A stretch of 13,319 nt of DNA from a virus (lineage: Duplodnaviria; Heunggongvirae; Uroviricota; Caudoviricetes), in IMG/VR virus record IMGVR_UViG_2925919700_000003, positions 1 through 13,319 of that record. The stretch is one strand, 5' to 3'. The translations under genes and the position numbers were made by a program. Of this stretch, positions 1 to 10,699 are shown piece after piece (positions within the stretch are counted from its first letter, which is position 1; each line of letters starts with the position of its first letter). A model generated the notes under the pieces. It was not told where the DNA came from. It ran no database searches and saw only the letters and a list, made by a program, of their open reading frames with translations.

Positions 1-1053
1 TTACGGGGTAATGCCAACCGCTGCCGCCACTTTGTCGCCACTTGGCAGCGTTGCCAGAGGATTGAAACGGAGCGCCGTTTCCAGATGATCCGGTGCCAGA
101 TGTGCGTAACGCATAGTCATTTTTATATCGTGGTGTCCGAGAATTTTTTGTAAGGCCAGAATGTTTCCACCCGACATCATGAAGTGCGCCGCAAACGTAT
201 GGCGCAGAACGTGTGTGAGTTGACCGCGAGGGAGCACGATAGACGTTTTTTCCATCACGGATAAAAATTGAAAATAGCAGTCTGTGAAGAAATTGAACCC
301 ATCAAGCGCCATGATCTCTTCGTAAAGCTCTTTACTGATAGGGATGCTTCTGTTTTTCTTCCCCTTCGTTCTTACAAAGGTAATTCGGTATTTGGTCACC
401 TGTGAACGAGTAAGATTTACGGCTTCTCGCCAGCGTGCGCCTGTGCTTAAGCATATCTTAACTACCAGTGCCAGAATTGGGTCCTGACGTTTGCAATCAG
501 CCAGTAATTCAACAATCTGCTCATGGGTAAGCCATGCCATCTCTTTTTCTGCGATGGTGAATTTTCGCATGTTCTCCAGTGGGTTCGGATACGACCATTC
601 GCCCAGGCGGGATAGTTCGCTAAAAACACTACTTAGATAGCTTTGCTCCAGGTTAATGGTGACCGGGCTTGCTCCTTTCTTCCATTTCTCGCTGAAGTAG
701 ATCTCACCTGTCAGGCGTTTATCTCGATAGTGGGCAAACATTTTAGAGGTGAGATCAGTTGCAAGGGGATTGCCCAGAGCGTCAACCATCAGCAGCAATT
801 TGTCATAGACATGCTGCCCAGCAGTCAGTGATTTACCATGTAGTTTGAACCATAGCTCAACCACGTCTTTCAGTGTTCGACGATCCACTGATTCACCTAG
901 CCAGGGCTTTGCTTCGGTTTCTTCCATCGTGTGACGCTCAAAAGCCAGTGCTTCGCCTTTGGTGGCGAATTGTTTACGCACACGACGCCCACTACGTCCG
1001 GCGGGGTAACATTCGCAAAGCCATTTTCCTGTGGTGAGTTTTCGTACAGCCAT
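1..1053 (-). CDS. int: Tyrosine recombinase / phage integrase, P2-186 family
   Basis: 350 aa from ATG at 1051-1053 (minus strand), preceded by GGAGGG; the longer 376-aa ORF start is unlikely. N-terminus MAVRKLTTGKW...RKQF resembles the P2 Int N-terminus; C-terminal region has R..HxxR...Y signature (LRHTFAAHF, MTMRYAHL). Stop is the first triplet of the window. Confidence 0.9.
   Translation of the reverse strand: MAVRKLTTGKWLCECYPAGRSGRRVRKQFATKGEALAFERHTMEETEAKPWLGESVDRRTLKDVVELWFKLHGKSLTAGQHVYDKLLLMVDALGNPLATDLTSKMFAHYRDKRLTGEIYFSEKWKKGASPVTINLEQSYLSSVFSELSRLGEWSYPNPLENMRKFTIAEKEMAWLTHEQIVELLADCKRQDPILALVVKICLSTGARWREAVNLTRSQVTKYRITFVRTKGKKNRSIPISKELYEEIMALDGFNFFTDCYFQFLSVMEKTSIVLPRGQLTHVLRHTFAAHFMMSGGNILALQKILGHHDIKMTMRYAHLAPDHLETALRFNPLATLPSGDKVAAAVGITP
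19..40. repeat. Left copy of 22-bp direct repeat, putative attL core, lying inside the 3' end of int
   Basis: cgctgccgccaCtttgtcgcca at 19-40 recurs as cgctgccgccaTtttgtcgcca at 10465-10486 (21/22 identical). The two copies bracket the phage-like block: int stop at 1-3, ogr stop at 10462-10464. Confidence 0.6.
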
Positions 1054-1241
1054 AAAAAATGCCCTCCAATAGAGAGCATTTTTACTGTATGTATAACCAG
1101 TGTCAATGTATGAAATCCTGCGACCATACATCTCACTGAAGCCATAATGAAGTAGGCTATTCTTTTTGCTATGTGATCATGTAACTTTTGCGGTTAACCT
1201 GTGGCTCATTTTTATTTTAGGCGCAGATATAAAAGCAAAAG

Positions 1242-1433
1242 TTATCGTGAGTTTTTAGTACAGATTTTTTTGGATTTACTAATAGTTCCATCATTGCAAA
1301 CGAATTTGCCATCAGAGGTACAGTGAGAAACACCTCCCTTTTTCCCTGAGCAGGGATAATTTCTAGCATAGGTAGCTAGTGGGTTTAATAACAAAGAACA
1401 TGACAAAACCACAAAAAATACCTTACCAAGCAT
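1242..1433 (-). CDS. Small secreted cysteine-rich peptide (63 aa precursor), function unknown
   Basis: Strong SD (GGGAGGA) 5-6 nt upstream of ATG at 1431-1433. N-terminus [23 protein letters not shown] looks like a Sec signal peptide (possible AxA-type cleavage after TYA; an alternative VLSC lipobox is possible). Predicted mature ~40 aa part is basic with 4 Cys. Same strand as cI and int, between them; AT-rich. Confidence 0.55.
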
Positions 1434-1448
1434 AATTTCCTCCCGGTA

Positions 1449-2024
1449 CTATTTAACATACTTGACTGTTAAGCTTATAATTTTACCAATTATTTCAATG
1501 TCTTCTATCTTACATTCGAAGGCTCTGTTTCCACCCTCGACGAAGATTCTTCCACCGGGTAAACGAGTAATGTCACGGATCGTTATTTCGCCATCAATAC
1601 TTATTACCCATTTACCATCACGTATATCATCAAATTCCTTATCACAAATAAATTCAGAATTATTATCTGTGATTACAAAAAGATTCTTGAATGCCGACGG
1701 TAGAAATTCTCTATCGAAAATATAAAAACCGTCTTCACACAAGGCCCCATCAGATAATACATATTTAGCAACTTCCATAGTATTTGTATTACCTGAAGTT
1801 TGCTTTGAACCATGCCCGGTTGTGAGCCAATTAAGCGAGGTTCCTGTTTCAAGGGCGCACTGGATTACCCATTCTGCTGGGAATGAGTCACGCATGTAGC
1901 GTGTGGCGAGTGTACTTTTAGAGATTCCTAAATGATCGCACAACGCCTGTCGAGTCTTGAATCCATAAGCTTCTACCATGCGCTCTATGGCGCCTCGTCC
2001 GCCTTTCTCCAAATTCATGGTCAC
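1449..2024 (-). CDS. cI: Phage 186 CI-like immunity repressor
   Basis: 191 aa; N-terminal HTH region (EAYGF...LCDHLGISKSTLATRY...CALETGTSLNWLTTGHG) and C-terminal region (W.ISIDGEITIR.ITRLPGG...GG..FEC.IEDIE) match my recollection of 186 CI. GGAG precedes the ATG. Divergent from apl-cII. Confidence 0.85.
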   Translation of the reverse strand: MTMNLEKGGRGAIERMVEAYGFKTRQALCDHLGISKSTLATRYMRDSFPAEWVIQCALETGTSLNWLTTGHGSKQTSGNTNTMEVAKYVLSDGALCEDGFYIFDREFLPSAFKNLFVITDNNSEFICDKEFDDIRDGKWVISIDGEITIRDITRLPGGRIFVEGGNRAFECKIEDIEIIGKIISLTVKYVK

Positions 2025-2042
2025 TCCAAGTGAACTTTTATC

Positions 2043-2071
2043 TTGACGATTTCACTGTGCGATCGTATGTT
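2043..2071 (+). promoter_or_regulatory. Candidate sigma70 lytic promoter (pR-like) for apl-cII
   Basis: TTGACG (2043-2048), 17-nt spacer, TATGTT (2066-2071), about 70 nt upstream of the apl ATG. Short inverted repeats (GTGAA...TTCAC) flank the -35 and could be operator half-sites. Position fits a 186-type switch region. Confidence 0.4.
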
Positions 2072-2143
2072 TATGGTGTTCACAAAATACAAACGATCCG
2101 TATTCGTCCTGATTAATCATCATTAAACGAGGAATGTTGCATC

Positions 2144-2365
2144 ATGAGACCTAACATTTCAATCACTCTTACCACGCCTCATGTGACTATTGAACGCTAT
2201 AGCGAGCTGACAGGGCTATCCATCGATACCATCAATGATATGTTGGCTGATGGACGCCTTATCCGTCACCGTCTGCGCAAAGATAAAAAACGCGAAAAAG
2301 TGATGATCAACATAGCAGCAATGACCGTTGATGCGCTTTCAGAATGCAATCTAAACCTTAATTAG
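2144..2365 (+). CDS. apl: Apl/Cox-like excisionase and transcriptional regulator (small HTH protein)
   Basis: 73 aa, first gene of the rightward operon divergent from cI, with probable HTH ([19 protein letters not shown]); GAGGA upstream. Assignment is mainly positional. Confidence 0.7.
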
Positions 2366-2397
2366 TTCGATTCTGAAATACATCAGAGGCATTGACC

Positions 2398-3721: not shown

Positions 3722-3948
3722 TGGCTGATGCAATGGATCTCGTACAGCAGCGCGTTGAAGAAGAACGCCAGCGCCATATCCGTGCAGCCCGTGCCAAATC
3801 ACCGGGCGTGTCACGCGTACTTTGCATTGAATGTGAAGCGCCAATTCCGCCAGCACGACGCCGCGCCATTCCGGGAGTGCAGCTTTGCATTACCTGTCAG
3901 GAAATCGCAGAACTGAAAGGCAAACATTACAACGGAGGTGCTGTATGA
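3721..3948 (+). CDS. TraR/DksA-family C4 zinc-finger protein
   Basis: 75 aa with CIECEAPIPPARRRAIPGVQLCITCQ (CxxC-x17-CxxC), typical of DksA/TraR-type zinc fingers found in P2-like early regions. Stop overlaps the dam start (ATGA at 3945-3948). Confidence 0.75.
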   Translation: MADAMDLVQQRVEEERQRHIRAARAKSPGVSRVLCIECEAPIPPARRRAIPGVQLCITCQEIAELKGKHYNGGAV

Positions 3949-4724
3949 GCACCATCCTGAAATGGGCGGGAAATAAAACCGCCATTATGCCAGAACTGAA
4001 AAAATACCTTCCTGCTGGCCCGCGACTGGTTGAACCTTTCGCGGGTTCCTGTGCTGTGATGATGGAAACGGATTATCCCAGCTATCTGGTTGCGGATATT
4101 AATCCTGATTTAATCAACCTCTATAAAAAGGTTGCCGCTGATTGTGAATCGTTTATATCTCGCGCCAGAGTTTTATTTGAGATCGCAAACAGGGAGGTGG
4201 CTTATTACAACATAAGGCAGGAGTTTAACTGCTCAACTGAAATTACTGATTTCATGAAAGCGGTATATTTCCTGTATCTCAATCGTCACGGTTACCGTGG
4301 TTTATGTCGCTATAACAAGAGCGGGCATTTCAACATTCCCTACGGTAATTATAAAAATCCGTATTTCCCTGAAAAAGAACTTCGCACATTTGCAGAAAAA
4401 GCCCAGCGAGCAACGTTTATCTGCGCCAGCTTTGATGAAACGCTGACGATGTTGAAGGCGGGAGATGTGGTGTATTGCGATCCGCCATATGACGGTACGT
4501 TTTCCGGTTATCACACTGATGGTTTCACTGAAGATGACCAGTATCACCTGGCATCCGTTCTTGAACATCGGTCATCAGAAGGACATCCGGTCATTGTTTC
4601 TAACAGTGACACATCCCTGATCCGTTCGCTGTATCGCAATTTTACTCACCACTATATCAAGGTAAAACGCAGCATCGGTGTGGCAGCTGGCGAGGGTACT
4701 GGAGCTGAAGGTGTACGCGGATGA
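3945..4724 (+). CDS. dam: DNA adenine (N6) methyltransferase, Dam/D12 class; C-terminus probably replaced at a deletion junction
   Basis: [11 protein letters not shown] start, PFAGS AdoMet-binding motif and DPPY catalytic motif ([10 protein letters not shown]). GGAGG 7 nt upstream. After ...[10 protein letters not shown] the last ~16 aa ([15 protein letters not shown]) do not look like a Dam C-terminus, and a tail-fibre reading frame begins at about 4678. Confidence 0.8.
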
Positions 4725-5748
4725 TCAGATGGCAAAACATCTTGCCGCACCGGACCCGCATTCACAGTATGCACAGAAAGAAAGTCCTACGTTTACCGGG
4801 ACACCCAAAGCGCCAACGCCAGCGGCGGGGAATAACACCACGCAGGTTGCGACCACAGCGTTTGTTCAGGCTGCACTGACGGCTATTATTAATGATGCGC
4901 CAGCCACGCTGGACACGCTGAAAGAAATAGCCGTAGCCATTAACAATGATCCGAAATTCAGTACCACCATTAACAATGCGCTGGCACTGAAAGCTCCGCT
5001 GTCGAGTCCGGCACTCACCGGAACGCCAACAGCCCCCACGGCGGCGCAGTCGGTCAATAATACACAGATTGCCACTACGGCTTTTGTGAAATCGGCGATT
5101 GCAGGAATGGTGGGTTCTGCACCTGCGGCACTGGATACACTGAACGAACTGGCGGCGGCACTGGGGAATGACCCGAACTTTGCCACGACAATGCTTAATG
5201 CACTGGCAGGTAAACAACCGCTGGACAATACGCTGACTAATTTGAGTGGAAAGGATGTAGCTGGTCTTCTCGCATACCTTGGTCTGGGGGAAACGATAAA
5301 TAAAGCCTCCGGAGCTATGCAGAAATCAGCTAATGGTTCTGATATTTCTGATATATCAGCCTTCCGAAATGCGCTCCGGTTAGGGGCCGCTGCAACACGA
5401 GATGTTGGAGGGGATAATGCCTCGAAGTTACTGGATTTAGACAGTTTCAGGTCAATGATGTCAGGTAATGGCTACATCTACATTCCATGCATTGCGACGA
5501 CAGGAAACCCGGTGAAACTTATGTTGCAGTGGGGAACGGTGGCAACACAAAAGGGAGCTGATGCTGGATATGCCTTACCATTTGCTTTTCCCTATGCAGG
5601 CTTGTTTGCGACCGGAAACCGTGGAACATCTGGCTACAATGCCGCGATGAATGTGCGTATTGCCAGCAGAACGCATATCAGTATTCAGAACTGGTCGCCA
5701 TCCGGAGAGGGCACCGAAGATTGTTGTTTTATCGCGCTGGGGTATTAA
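4678..5748 (+). pseudogene. Side tail fibre protein (P2 gpH / lambda Stf-like), N-terminally truncated fragment
   Basis: Open frame with no convincing start/RBS, overlapping the dam 3' end. Contains fibre repeats ([31 protein letters not shown]...NTTQ[VI]ATTAFV and TLNELAAALGNDPNFATTM.NALAGKQP). The tail-attachment N-terminal domain is absent. Confidence 0.75.
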
Positions 5749-6207: not shown

Positions 6208-7347
6208 TTATGCTGTCTTGAACTGTAAAAGCACTTTACTAATTCTTCCCGACAGTAATACAGCTGGTTTATCGAAAAGACGATAGAAACCCCAGGACAC
6301 TGGTAAGCTTATGGCTACGCAAATTATTATTGATATGAGGCTTGCTGCTAATTCATCAATGCGTAAGGACAAGTAGTTAAATGATGGTATTGCTACCGCG
6401 TAAATTAAAACCATTTGTAATAAATATAATGAGAAAGATATCTTGCCTAAAAATATTGCTGGTTTTGTAGATAGTATATTGTTAACCCCATTGCTCCTCA
6501 ATGCAAATAAAACAATAAAAATACCAGAGAATAAAAACAGGGTGTACTCAGTTAAGTAATTATTAATATCTGAGAAAATGCTTGAATAGGCATATGATTG
6601 TACTTTATATCCAGCAAAGTATAATCCAAGAATTAGGATTGCGACAGATGATTTTTTTGATAGTTTAATATTTGTCTTGTATATTACGGAGCCAGACATA
6701 AAACAAGCCAATCCATAGTATAGTGCGTCGCCATCATTGTAATAGCCTAGTGATAGGAATATAAGAAATACAATCGCTGGAAAAAGTGCGGAGTTTGTTT
6801 TCTTGGATATAAATAGTAAAGCCAGAATATATGATCCGATGAGTTCAATTTTCATGGTCCATAATACCCAGTTATAGGTCTTAACACCATCCCCACCAAA
6901 AGCACCTATTAATCCTGTGAATATGGCACCATGTAAGCTGTAATCAAAGGTTCCTAGATTTGAGGCCCATTCGGAAATGCCAGTTCTATTTATATCTATG
7001 TGTGAGTATACAGCCCATCCAATCAAACAAGAGAAAAATACTGGCACCATTAATCTTATATATCTTTTTAAAAGGAATGCAAAGAAAAGAATTGAATCAA
7101 ATCGCTTAGAGAAACTTGAAGATAAAACAAAACCACTTAATACAAAGAATACGTAGACTCCAGCAGAGCCAGAGTAAAAAAAAGAGAAAGGAGAGTTCAT
7201 GATATAACTCTCAAAAGAATACCTCATGGACTCTGCTGCATGCATATATGGGTAGAAAGTATATGCAAGATGTGAGAAAAACACAGCAAGACAGGCGATG
7301 CCTCTGAGACCGTCCGCATTACTATTGTGTTCTTGAGCAACACTCAT
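6208..7347 (-). CDS. Acyltransferase family 3 integral membrane protein (O-antigen/LPS acetylase-like); cargo gene
   Basis: 380 aa from ATG at 7345-7347 (ORF-track start at 7395 is TTG). Polytopic and very hydrophobic; N-terminal GLRGIACLAVFFSHL is typical of acyltransferase-3 (OafA/Oac-like) enzymes. Clearly more AT-rich than the flanking phage and host DNA. Opposite strand to the surrounding late genes. Confidence 0.75.
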   Translation of the reverse strand: MSVAQEHNSNADGLRGIACLAVFFSHLAYTFYPYMHAAESMRYSFESYIMNSPFSFFYSGSAGVYVFFVLSGFVLSSSFSKRFDSILFFAFLLKRYIRLMVPVFFSCLIGWAVYSHIDINRTGISEWASNLGTFDYSLHGAIFTGLIGAFGGDGVKTYNWVLWTMKIELIGSYILALLFISKKTNSALFPAIVFLIFLSLGYYNDGDALYYGLACFMSGSVIYKTNIKLSKKSSVAILILGLYFAGYKVQSYAYSSIFSDINNYLTEYTLFLFSGIFIVLFALRSNGVNNILSTKPAIFLGKISFSLYLLQMVLIYAVAIPSFNYLSLRIDELAASLISIIICVAISLPVSWGFYRLFDKPAVLLSGRISKVLLQFKTA

Positions 7348-7380
7348 GAAAATTAACCTATGTTTAGAGTAATGTAGCCT

Positions 7381-7404
7381 AAAACGCCTAATCAAAAATA
7401 GGCG
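7381..7404 (-). promoter_or_regulatory. Small hairpin plus U-run in the 5' leader of the acyltransferase gene (attenuator or terminator-like)
   Basis: Minus strand reads cgccta-tttttgat-taggcg followed by tttt, about 34 nt upstream of the acyltransferase ATG. Stem is only 6 bp, so weak. Confidence 0.25.
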
Positions 7405-10486: not shown

Positions 10487-10543
10487 TCGTTAAAAAACAG
10501 TGCTTCTAACATCATGATTTTAAACAGCATAAATTTCAGGCAA

Positions 10544-10587
10544 CAAAAAACCCATCAACCTTGAACCGAAATGGCGGGGTTGATGGG
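10544..10587 (-). terminator. Rho-independent terminator downstream of ybjL
   Basis: 10-bp perfect stem cccatcaacc / ggttgatggg (10551-10560 and 10578-10587) with 17-nt loop; on the minus strand it is followed by TTTTTTG; about 110 nt past the ybjL stop. Confidence 0.55.
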
Positions 10588-10699
10588 CTCCACAAAATGG
10601 GGACATCAAAGAAAAGCAGTGGCATTAATTAAGACTGATGCCCTGCGGAAAAGTTCTGCGGTTGTGCAAAAAAATTTCATTTTCAGGGCAACTTCAGTT

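What the first reader, a model, noticed from the sequence alone, without database searches (positions are those of the whole stretch)
1242..1433. Small secreted cysteine-rich peptide gene inside the cI-int lysogenic operon
Between the repressor and integrase genes, on their strand, lies a 63-codon ORF with a strong SD, a textbook signal peptide and a ~40-aa basic mature part with four cysteines. Genes in this position are transcribed with the repressor in the lysogen, which is where phages typically place host-modifying, exclusion or toxin-like morons. I do not recognise the peptide as a member of a known family. A small exported disulfide-bonded peptide expressed from a prophage could act at the envelope, for example on a receptor, porin or peptidoglycan enzyme.
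Basis: partly seen in the sequence, partly recalled or inferred. Interest (0 to 1): 0.6.

Follow-up and report, generated by a model that had tools for sequence, protein, structure and literature searches.

The report
Prophage copy of YdcA periplasmic mini-protein
The 63-codon ORF is a real, strongly conserved gene sitting just behind the repressor gene of a 186-like E. coli prophage. It encodes an exported, disulfide-bonded basic mini-protein of the YdcA family, which is already catalogued but has no known function, so it is a known kind of gene whose job is still open.

Summary
ORF 1242-1433 (-) has 63 codons and starts 15 nt after the cI stop, behind a GGGAGG Shine-Dalgarno. It has a Sec-type signal peptide and a 40-aa, pI 9.7, four-cysteine mature part. 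The claim that it belongs to no known family is wrong. It passes the curated cutoff of NCBIfam NF007463 (PRK10040.1-2), matches phrog_6000, its exact sequence carries Pfam PF27300 (YdcA), and newer RefSeq annotations call this protein (WP_001513672.1) 'YdcA family protein'. About 12% of complete E. coli genomes carry it next to cI. The mature peptide is under extreme purifying selection (pN/pS about 0.03, synonymous sites saturated), while the signal peptide drifts. A YdcA gene recurs between cI and int in E. coli, Klebsiella, Enterobacter, Hafnia and Haemophilus HP2/S2 prophages. In the E. coli and Klebsiella prophages it lies beside variable defence cargo in the same slot. The only solved relative is Legionella Dis2, a two-lobed, disulfide-pinned subunit of the Dot/Icm outer-membrane cap. 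Elsewhere the domain sits N-terminal to three unrelated exported nuclease families. Best reading: a lysogen-expressed periplasmic docking module, probably a lysogenic-conversion or exclusion factor like the non-homologous K139 Glo. Function is untested. Modest interest.

The parts
1242..1433 (-). ydcA-like CDS (63 codons + TAA stop at 1242-1244); identical to RefSeq WP_001513672.1 'YdcA family protein'
   Evidence: NF007463 114.6 bits, cutoff 93; phrog_6000 3e-34; PF27300; pN/pS about 0.03
1365..1433 (-). Sec signal peptide, residues 1-23; predicted signal peptidase I cleavage after A-T-Y-A23
   Evidence: Ala at -1 invariant in 29/29. Sequence otherwise diverges freely (pN 0.53). Hydrophobic core KD 2.86. 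Cleavage site is inferred, not measured.
1245..1364 (-). Mature 40-aa peptide with the YdcA domain ([32 protein letters not shown]): four Cys, net charge +7, pI 9.7
   Evidence: four Cys in 151/152 domains; AF2 pLDDT 80.5, beta-hairpin; Dis2 top fold match
1439..1444 (-). Shine-Dalgarno GGGAGG, 5 nt upstream of the ATG, inside the 15-nt cI-ydcA gap
   Evidence: kept in 76/80 IMG/VR copies
1449..2018 (-). cI repressor (186 type); RefSeq start at 2018, longest ORF runs to 2024
   Evidence: Diverged together with ydcA as one module: window 2376..1250 aligns at 72% nt identity to L010.
1143..1241 (-). Spacer specific to this prophage type, at the place where relatives carry a 1.3-kb KAP NTPase (PDC-S20) gene
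1055..1083 (-). Terminator-like 13-bp hairpin plus U-run directly abutting the int AUG; the int SD GGAGG lies in its 3' arm. Probable end or attenuator of the cI-ydcA transcript.
   Evidence: dG -20.8, z -6.7. Same architecture with different stem sequence, and a U-A to C-G compensatory change, in L010/L016/L004/L005. Function is inferred.
1078..1106 (-). Conserved promoter-like element TTGACA-17-AAAAAT in the int leader; its -10 overlaps the 5' arm of the hairpin
   Evidence: conserved as TTGACx-17-TAAATT in relatives; function not tested
1..1053 (-). Tyrosine integrase at the left prophage end (host rcdA lies just outside the window)
2144..2365 (+). Apl/Cox-like gene, divergent from cI; the pR/pL switch region lies at 2019-2143
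   Evidence: phrog_575; 186 annotation used for analogy

Best explanation
The ORF is a genuine gene of a 186-like (Peduoviridae) E. coli prophage. It encodes a YdcA-family mini-protein.

Shown: it starts 15 nt after cI behind a strong SD, so it rides on the repressor's lysogenic (pL/pE-type) transcript. That transcript probably ends or is attenuated at the hairpin just before int.

Inferred from sequence: the 23-residue signal peptide sends it through Sec and signal peptidase I cuts after Ala23. That releases a 4.3-kDa, very basic peptide into the periplasm, where its four invariant cysteines form two disulfides around a beta-hairpin.

Inferred from relatives: the YdcA domain is a periplasmic docking module for a conserved, probably anionic, envelope-proximal ligand (the inner face of the outer membrane, or nucleic acid). 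It forms both lobes of Dis2 at the outer-membrane side of the Legionella Dot/Icm cap. It is the N-terminal module of exported nucleases of three unrelated folds. It also occurs in T6SS-linked proteins.

Inferred from context: as a free domain made constitutively in the lysogen, it acts as a lysogenic-conversion factor at the envelope. It most likely hinders entry of competing phages or foreign DNA, as periplasmic Glo does from the same slot in phage K139.

The identity and expression logic are near certain. The biochemical ligand and the phenotype are not shown.
For: Identity:
- NF007463 at 114.6 bits against a cutoff of 93.
- phrog_6000 at 3e-34.
- PF27300 precomputed on the identical protein.
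- RefSeq name 'YdcA family protein'.

Real and constrained:
- Mature core pN 0.025 against pS 0.93 versus L010; signal peptide pN 0.53.
- Intact in 80/80 IMG/VR copies.
- Present next to cI in 647/5426 complete E. coli genomes, with a CDS annotated in every sampled row showing the cI-adjacent copy.

Operon:
- 15-nt gap with SD, and no terminator or promoter between cI and the ORF.
- 186 lysogenic operon annotation.
- Hairpin before int.

Recurrent cI-to-int placement:
- E. coli and Klebsiella: cI-YdcA-KAP-int.
- Enterobacter: cI-YdcA-int.
- Hafnia: cI-orf-YdcA-int.
- Haemophilus HP2/S2: an unannotated, intact 60-aa ORF just after cI.

Docking-module inference:
- Dis2 is the best PDB sequence hit (E 1.4e-4 for the full profile, 2.3e-3 for the domain only).
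- Dis2 is the single clear Foldseek hit (probability 0.95, TM 0.63, 39% identity; the next hit has probability 0.10).
- A Dis2 homologue carries PF27300.
- hhalign gives 79% probability.
- Dis2 is described as lying near the outer membrane, with two lobes and five disulfides (PMC8486379).
- Fusions among 58 longer representatives: Endonuclease_NS x3, SNase x2, PLDc_2 x1, VasL x1.
- A T6SS cluster with a GIY-YIG neighbour.

Exclusion analogy:
- K139 Glo is annotated 'periplasmic protein; involved in phage exclusion' and lies between cI and int.
- PD-Lambda-1 and PDC-S20 occupy the same slot in relatives.
- The cI-int hotspot is described in PMC9122126.
Against: - No experiment links any YdcA-family protein to phage exclusion, DNA binding or membrane binding.
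- PADLOC has no model that matches it.
- Glo is not homologous (hhalign probability 0.1%).
- E. coli already has a core chromosomal ydcA. Its only reported phenotypes are acid induction and 3-hydroxypropionate sensitivity of the deletion (PMC7642389). That fits a host-physiology role at least as well.
- The near-invariant mature sequence is unlike arms-race defence proteins.
- Nuclease fusions are 6 of 58 longer representatives, and only the top 150 of 466 clusters were seen.
- The signal-peptide cleavage site and the disulfides are predictions.
Confidence: 0.4

Rival explanations
1. Host-fitness moron. The prophage supplies an extra, constitutively expressed copy of a housekeeping envelope protein (as bor, lom or sodC do). 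It improves envelope robustness, for example acid or organic-acid tolerance, and has no effect on other phages.
For: - Chromosomal ydcA is a core E. coli gene.
- Its deletion makes E. coli W sensitive to 3-hydroxypropionate, and the paper cites acid induction under YdcI (PMC7642389).
- The mature peptide is about 75% identical to K-12 YdcA and under extreme purifying selection. That implies the same conserved ligand as the host copy.
- Some family members are plainly chromosomal, next to dsbC, hom and cysS.
Against: - Repeated capture by unrelated mobile elements: 186-like and HP2-like prophages, the structural modules of Moraxella phages and a comparable unannotated region of an Acinetobacter phage, and a 3.9-kb MOBQ plasmid.
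- It sits in a slot that otherwise holds defence genes. Both points suggest a benefit tied to mobile-element competition.
- The host already has a copy.
Confidence: 0.3
2. Periplasmic DNA-binding peptide. The basic domain binds DNA. Free in the periplasm, it interferes with DNA that crosses the envelope (natural transformation, conjugation, ejected phage DNA), which protects the prophage from curing or competition.
For: - The domain is N-terminal to three unrelated exported nuclease folds (Endonuclease_NS, SNase, PLD-Nuc).
- It lies next to a GIY-YIG nuclease and next to a TraD-like gene on a MOBQ plasmid.
- Net charge is +7.
- Phage-borne copies are frequent in naturally competent genera: Haemophilus, Moraxella, Acinetobacter.
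- HP2 pairs it with an OB-fold (tRNA_anti-like) protein.
Against: - Dis2 and the VasL/T6SS contexts do not involve DNA.
- E. coli and Klebsiella are not known for natural transformation (from general knowledge).
- Phage DNA is normally shielded during ejection (from general knowledge).
- Median domain charge across the family is only +3.
- No DNA-binding fold was recognised.
Confidence: 0.15
3. Secreted cationic antimicrobial or toxin-like peptide (defensin-like) aimed at competitors.
For: - It is small, cationic and two-disulfide.
- A YdcA-family gene was among loci unique to antimicrobial-positive Pseudomonas protegens strains (PMC13541209).
Against: - There is only a Sec signal. No export system, processing enzyme or immunity gene lies nearby.
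- The domain is a building block of larger periplasmic proteins and of a T4SS structural subunit.
- A core chromosomal copy exists without a partner.
Confidence: 0.04
4. Lipoprotein: Cys12 within V-L-S-C is lipidated and the protein is membrane-anchored.
For: VVLSC (residues 8-12) formally fits the loose PROSITE lipobox residue pattern (sequence inspection).
Against: - Cys12 lies too close to the N-terminus, with only about 7 hydrophobic residues before it.
- Homologues with a Cys there have F, I or V at -1, and most have no Cys at all.
- The invariant feature is Ala at -1 of the later signal peptidase I site.
Confidence: 0.03

Closest known systems
E. coli K-12 YdcA (b1419), founder of the YdcA family (Pfam PF27300, NCBIfam PRK10040 models)
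   Same: Same architecture: signal peptide plus one roughly 34-aa domain with four Cys and the PCSGxKGG[IV]SHC...[14 protein letters not shown] motif. About 75% identical in the core. No biochemical function is known for either.
   Different: - Different NCBIfam subfamily: it passes NF007463 but fails the K-12-type equivalog NF007462 (68.5 bits against a cutoff of 118).
- Unrelated signal peptide, and more basic (+7 against +5).
- Prophage-borne and wired to cI, instead of chromosomal between hokB and cybB near ydcI.
Legionella pneumophila Dis2 (Lpg0823), subunit of the Dot/Icm T4SS outer-membrane cap (PDB 7MUC/7MUD)
   Same: - It is the only solved relative: best sequence hit and best fold hit.
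- A homologue carries PF27300.
- It has a signal peptide, is disulfide-stapled, and lies in the periplasm close to the outer membrane.
   Different: - Dis2 has two tandem lobes with five disulfides and is a stoichiometric part of a secretion machine (13 copies).
- The window protein is a single free domain, with no T4SS genes nearby.
- Similarity is remote (39% over 38 columns, Foldseek E 0.14).
Glo of Vibrio phage K139 (periplasmic superinfection-exclusion protein)
   Same: - Same place and logic: a Sec-exported soluble periplasmic protein encoded between cI and int on the PL lysogenic transcript of a P2-related phage.
- It is annotated as involved in phage exclusion and cited as a soluble periplasmic Sie protein in PMC3952083.
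   Different: No sequence relationship (hhalign probability 0.1%). Glo is 137 aa and not a four-Cys mini-domain (two Cys in 137 aa). An exclusion phenotype is shown for Glo only.
Defence cargo of the cI-int slot in P2/186-like prophages (PD-Lambda-1; KAP NTPase PDC-S20; Vibrio P2-like cI-int hotspot of Rousset et al. 2022)
   Same: Same slot, and the same expression from the lysogenic transcript.
   Different: - Those are large cytoplasmic NTPase or nuclease-type proteins that swap between phages.
- YdcA is tiny and exported, is not in PADLOC, and is the constant neighbour of cI while the larger gene varies.
Other periplasmic exclusion proteins (T4 Spackle, P1 Sim); named from general knowledge, not tested here
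   Same: Small Sec-exported periplasmic proteins that block incoming phage at the envelope.
   Different: No homology was detected to any phage family other than phrog_6000. Their mechanisms (gp5 lysozyme inhibition for Spackle) involve phage-specific targets, whereas YdcA is nearly invariant.

Membership tests
YdcA family (Pfam PF27300; NCBIfam NF007463 PRK10040.1-2; PHROG 6000) | Profile score above the curated cutoff | tested here: met
   NF007463 at 114.6 bits against cutoff 93, E 1.3e-33. phrog_6000 at E 3.1e-34. PF27300 precomputed on the identical protein P0001. The local Pfam copy lacks PF27300.
YdcA family (Pfam PF27300; NCBIfam NF007463 PRK10040.1-2; PHROG 6000) | Four conserved cysteines and the PCSGxKGG[IV]..C...F[IV]CxDG..S.SK..C motif | tested here: met
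   All invariant columns are present. Four Cys in 151/152 domain instances from 149 representatives.
YdcA family (Pfam PF27300; NCBIfam NF007463 PRK10040.1-2; PHROG 6000) | Domain placed directly after an N-terminal signal peptide (exported protein) | tested here: met
   Domain starts at residue 25. Median start is 26 in 149 representatives. Ala at -1 is invariant. Export itself is not testable here.
K-12 YdcA equivalog (NCBIfam NF007462 PRK10040.1-1) | Score above the equivalog cutoff | tested here: not met
   68.5 bits against cutoff 118. It is a paralogous subfamily, not the ortholog of b1419.
Dis2-type T4SS outer-membrane-cap subunit | Lobe fold and sequence similarity | tested here: inconclusive
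   [not shown]
Dis2-type T4SS outer-membrane-cap subunit | Two tandem lobes and association with T4SS genes | tested here: not met
   Single domain. No T4SS genes in the window.
Periplasmic superinfection-exclusion protein of P2-related phages (K139 Glo type) | Encoded between cI and int on the lysogenic strand, with a signal peptide | tested here: met
Periplasmic superinfection-exclusion protein of P2-related phages (K139 Glo type) | Sequence homology to Glo | tested here: not met
   hhalign probability 0.1%
Periplasmic superinfection-exclusion protein of P2-related phages (K139 Glo type) | Exclusion phenotype in lysogens or on expression | not testable with these tools
   Needs plating and adsorption assays.
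Known or candidate anti-phage defence systems (PADLOC-DB 2.0) | Match to any defence protein model | tested here: not met
   0 families for the peptide. Slot neighbours in relatives hit PDC-S20 (1e-171) and PD-Lambda-1 (7e-120).
Bacterial lipoprotein | Conserved lipobox with Cys at a suitable distance from the N-terminus | tested here: not met
   VLSC at residues 9-12 is too early and is not conserved in homologues. No LipoP run was available.

The most novel reading that the evidence does not exclude
YdcA-family mini-proteins are a widespread cargo of mobile elements: 186/HP2-like prophages, Moraxella and Acinetobacter phages, and small MOBQ plasmids. In this reading they form a new class of periplasmic entry-exclusion factor. 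A free, disulfide-stapled basic docking domain would coat a conserved anionic site at the inner face of the outer membrane, or bind DNA in transit. That would block phage genome delivery, conjugation or transformation. The same domain would explain how Dis2 and exported nucleases are positioned in the envelope.
Probability: 0.15. Interest if true: 0.65.

Novelty: already known. Interest (0 to 1): 0.3.

Why it matters
As a sequence object it is catalogued and ordinary, since newer RefSeq annotations name this exact protein. What is still open is what the YdcA domain does.

Three observations made here were not found in the searched literature:
- A YdcA gene recurs between cI and int in 186/HP2-like prophages of at least five genera.
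- The domain is related to both lobes of Dis2. The authors of that structure could not assign Dis2 a relative or a function.
- It is fused to three unrelated exported nuclease folds.

Together these give a cheap, testable hypothesis for a family found in essentially all E. coli and on many mobile elements. If the lysogen-expressed copy proves to be an exclusion or envelope-conversion factor, it would add a very small, easily synthesised peptide to the set of phage-encoded envelope modifiers. It would also help annotate Dis2.

Tried and rejected
- Local Pfam-A gave only a sub-threshold GULLO2 hit, because PF27300 is newer than the local copy. The family came from NCBIfam, PHROGs and precomputed Pfam.
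- Megablast of the region against deposited phages found only the int leader in Klebsiella phages. No enterobacterial phage record holds this gene.
- LDL-receptor class A repeats and lysozyme appear at E 0.06-4 in the PDB profile search. These were judged to be cysteine-pattern noise.
- My initial recollection of a resemblance to DUF3761/YHYH was not supported by any Pfam hit at E of 1 or less, and was dropped.
- The viral-contig scan returned 80 identical copies, so it gave no diversity beyond confirming that the ORF is intact.
- Searching with a Dis2 fragment returned only two truncated metagenomic homologues.
- RNAalifold on the int-leader hairpins failed because MAFFT misaligned the two stem classes. 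The covariation claim therefore rests on single-sequence folds and visual comparison.
- Most literature hits for 'ydcA' concern unrelated genes of the same name: the B. subtilis rhomboid, a pS88 methylase and a gonococcal island ORF.
- Nesper et al. 1999 (PMC93736) is not held in the library. Glo's role is cited from the K139 record and from secondary papers.
- The chance-ORF reading was rejected on the selection evidence.
Full report
**1. What is there**

The window opens with the left end of a 186-like prophage. On the minus strand lie a tyrosine integrase (1-1053), the ORF in question (1242-1433) and a 186-type CI repressor (1449-2018). On the plus strand lie an Apl/Cox-like gene, cII, fil, DUF5347, DUF2732, a TraR/DksA-like gene and dam.

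The ORF has 63 codons. The cI stop codon TAG (1449-1451) is followed by 15 nt holding GGGAGG, 5 nt before the ATG. The consensus scan finds no promoter-like or terminator-like site on that strand between cI and the ORF. In phage 186 itself, cI and int form the documented pL/pE lysogenic operon.

**2. It is a real gene**

The exact protein heads a 90%-identity cluster of 355 member sequences, seen on at least 1,000 contigs (the count's cap). A 318-bp query covering the gene and its flanks matches 647 of 5,426 complete E. coli genomes. In every sampled row showing the cI-adjacent copy a CDS is annotated under the match; the one weakest row hit chromosomal ydcA instead. All 80 IMG/VR prophage copies fetched have the ORF intact, and 76 keep GGGAGG.

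The cI-ORF module of a different E. coli prophage (L010) aligns with window 2376..1250 at only 72% nucleotide identity. Even so, in the 34-codon mature core 20 of 21.5 synonymous sites differ, against 2 of 80.5 non-synonymous sites. In the signal peptide pN is 0.53. Synonymous change is saturated, the mature peptide is almost frozen, and the leader drifts freely. That is the signature of an exported protein whose mature part is the functional unit. The overlapping ORFs in other frames (1217..1369 -, 1201..1326 +) have no such support.

**3. It belongs to a known family**

- NCBIfam NF007463 (PRK10040.1-2) scores 114.6 bits against a curated cutoff of 93.
- PHROG 6000 matches at 3e-34.
- The collection's precomputed Pfam assignment is PF27300, named YdcA.
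- Newer RefSeq annotations call WP_001513672.1 'YdcA family protein'.
- The founder, E. coli YdcA, was recovered from a chromosome between hokB and cybB. It shares about three quarters of the core residues.
- The window protein fails the K-12-type equivalog model (68.5 bits against 118), so it is a paralogous subfamily.

A profile search of 1.84 billion representatives finds 466 clusters. In 149 representatives the domain starts at a median position of 26, directly after a leader. It has four cysteines in 151 of 152 instances and a median net charge of +3. So the statement that the peptide belongs to no known family is wrong. The family itself has no assigned function. The only E. coli data found are 3-hydroxypropionate sensitivity of a ydcA deletion and a cited acid induction under YdcI (PMC7642389). 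One comparative study calls the family 'poorly characterized' (PMC13541209).

**4. Context in relatives**

The cI-int interval is a cargo slot:
- Fels-2 and 186 have nothing there; cI abuts int.
- KP12 and vB_EcoM-813R9 have a 558-aa protein matching PD-Lambda-1.
- Klebsiella phage 4LV2017 has a 349-aa unknown.

A YdcA gene recurs in the slot:
- E. coli and Klebsiella prophages: cI-YdcA-KAP NTPase (PDC-S20, 1e-171)-int.
- Enterobacter: cI-YdcA-int.
- Hafnia: cI-orf143-YdcA-int.
- Haemophilus phages HP2 and S2: an intact but unannotated 60-aa YdcA ORF immediately after cI, followed by a protein with an OB-fold (tRNA_anti-like) domain and then int.

Compared with L010, the window simply lacks the 1.3-kb KAP gene. 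YdcA stays with cI and has diverged along with it. YdcA is therefore the recurrent neighbour of cI, and the larger gene is the variable cargo.

Elsewhere the gene is a moron inside the tail-gene region of Moraxella phages and in a comparable, unannotated stretch of an Acinetobacter phage. It is one of five genes on a 3.9-kb MOBQ Acinetobacter plasmid, next to a TraD-like gene. It is also chromosomal in other bacteria.

Rousset et al. 2022 described a cI-int antiviral hotspot in Vibrio P2-related phages (PMC9122126). A 2026 preprint lists minor P2 hotspots around the integrase. Neither mentions YdcA.

**5. What the domain looks like and where else it occurs**

AlphaFold2 gives a small beta-hairpin core with pLDDT 77-80.

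Evidence linking it to Legionella Dis2 (Lpg0823):
- By sequence, the best PDB match of the family profile is Dis2 (E 1.4e-4 with the leader, 2.3e-3 for the domain alone). Both Dis2 lobes align to the C..GG[IV]..C...[LV]VCN[DN]G..S motif.
- By fold, Dis2 is the top Foldseek hit for both models. With the mature model: probability 0.95, TM 0.63, 39% identity, and the next hit has probability 0.10.
- hhalign gives 79%.
- A metagenomic Dis2 homologue carries PF27300.

Sheedlo et al. describe Dis2 as lying near the outer membrane in the Dot/Icm outer-membrane cap. It has two similar lobes pinned by five disulfides, and they found no structural relative or function for it (PMC8486379).

Among 58 longer family representatives, the N-terminal YdcA domain is followed by:
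- Endonuclease_NS (3)
- staphylococcal-nuclease (2)
- PLD-type nuclease (1)
- a VasL T6SS domain (1)
- the PBCV basic adaptor domain (2)

. On a Citrobacter plasmid a YdcA-domain protein sits between tssE and a GIY-YIG/T5orf172 protein.

The common denominator is a small, basic, disulfide-stapled module that places periplasmic or exported proteins at some conserved envelope-proximal ligand. The near invariance of the mature sequence from Enterobacterales to Burkholderiales points to a universal ligand: the inner face of the outer membrane, peptidoglycan or nucleic acid. It does not point to a fast-evolving phage or receptor protein.

**6. Most likely mechanism**

- Shown: the gene is real, constrained, and coupled to cI.
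- Inferred from sequence: Sec export, cleavage after Ala23 and two disulfides.
- Inferred from relatives: a docking module for a conserved anionic envelope ligand.
- Inferred from context: a free copy made constitutively in the lysogen acts as a lysogenic-conversion factor. It most likely hinders entry of competing phages or foreign DNA.

The best precedent is positional. Phage K139 encodes Glo between cI and int on its PL transcript. The record annotates Glo as a periplasmic protein involved in phage exclusion, and others cite it as a soluble periplasmic exclusion protein (PMC3952083). Glo is not homologous to YdcA, so this says how the gene may work, not what family it belongs to.

I put about 0.4 on this composite. 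The identity part is near 0.95 and the exclusion part about 0.35. A host-fitness role that copies the chromosomal YdcA gets 0.3. A specifically DNA-directed role gets 0.15. An antimicrobial-peptide reading and a lipoprotein reading are unlikely.

**7. A caveat on the 'cI-int operon'**

Directly before the int start codon, the lysogenic-strand RNA folds into a 13-bp hairpin followed by a U-run: AAAAAUGCUCUCU-AUU-GGAGGGCAUUUUU, window 1055-1083, dG -20.8 kcal/mol for the 51-nt stretch 1045-1095 that contains it, z -6.7. The int SD lies in its 3' arm.

Relatives with other slot cargo keep the same architecture with different stem sequences. One difference is a U-A to C-G compensatory change between L010 and L016. 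They also keep a conserved TTGACx-17-TAAATT/AAAAAT promoter-like element whose -10 overlaps the 5' arm. Lineages in which int abuts the preceding gene lack all of this.

So the cI-ydcA(-cargo) transcript probably terminates or is attenuated here, and int may have its own control. This would explain why genes dropped between cI and the hairpin are expressed in lysogens. It is an inference. RNAalifold could not be applied because the alignment failed.

**8. Verdict**

The object is an already annotated member of a known family whose function is unknown. New here are the recurrence of a YdcA gene between cI and int in P2/186/HP2-like prophages, the Dis2 relationship and the nuclease fusions. These make the family's function testable with simple experiments.

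Interest is modest at 0.3. A specialist would not be surprised by a small exported moron behind cI, but the family is widespread and unexplained.

Noticed in passing
window 1055-1106 (-); also L010 7575-7611, L016 7575-7611, L004/L005 just upstream of int: The int leader holds a terminator-like hairpin plus U-run abutting the int AUG, with the int SD in the 3' arm (z -6.7). A conserved TTGACx-17-(AAAAAT/TAAATT) promoter-like element has its -10 overlapping the 5' arm, and an ACTG...CAGT inverted repeat lies in its spacer. The stem sequence differs between prophage types but the architecture is kept (one U-A to C-G compensatory change). This suggests int is insulated from the cI transcript and separately controlled.
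   Followed up: partly
[not shown]
   Followed up: partly
window 4698 (junction); 3885-4724, 4678-5748: The prophage is a deletion remnant. Compared with E. coli MB06234, 6.65 kb is missing: the 3' end of dam, replication endonuclease, dinI-like, sieB-like, portal and a partial terminase. The truncated dam is joined to a truncated gp53-like tail-fibre gene. This junction is contiguous in none of 5,426 complete E. coli genomes, so it is either a rare deletion or an assembly artefact.
   Followed up: partly
window 10542-10620 (-): A full-length RybB sRNA gene (Rfam RF00110, 105 bits) sits at the right prophage boundary, next to ybjL/ybjM. Its 3' end faces the prophage, which suggests that the attachment site overlaps the rybB 3' end.
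   Followed up: no
window 6208-7395 (-): An acyltransferase-3 family gene lies beside the tail-fibre and tail-fibre-assembly genes. This is a typical position for an O-antigen-modifying lysogenic-conversion gene.
   Followed up: no
window 1453-1481 (+): A near-consensus sigma-70 promoter-like site (TTAACA-17-TATAAT, 11/12) lies on the strand antisense to cI, at the 3' end of cI just upstream of the ydcA start. It may be chance in AT-rich DNA (the scan total equals the shuffle expectation).
   Followed up: no
L010-L019 6198-7529; L004/L005 3591-5267: The cI-int slot of sister prophages holds a KAP NTPase matching the PADLOC candidate PDC-S20 (1e-171), or a 558-aa protein matching PD-Lambda-1 (7e-120). 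This 186-like slot is therefore a defence hotspot comparable to the one reported for Vibrio P2-like phages.
   Followed up: partly
proteins P0116, P0220, P0164, P0172, P0197, P0180 (representative library); L022 4926-6727: The YdcA domain is fused N-terminally to SNase, Endonuclease_NS and PLD-type nucleases. On a Citrobacter plasmid it is encoded between tssE and a GIY-YIG/T5orf172 protein in a T6SS cluster.
   Followed up: partly
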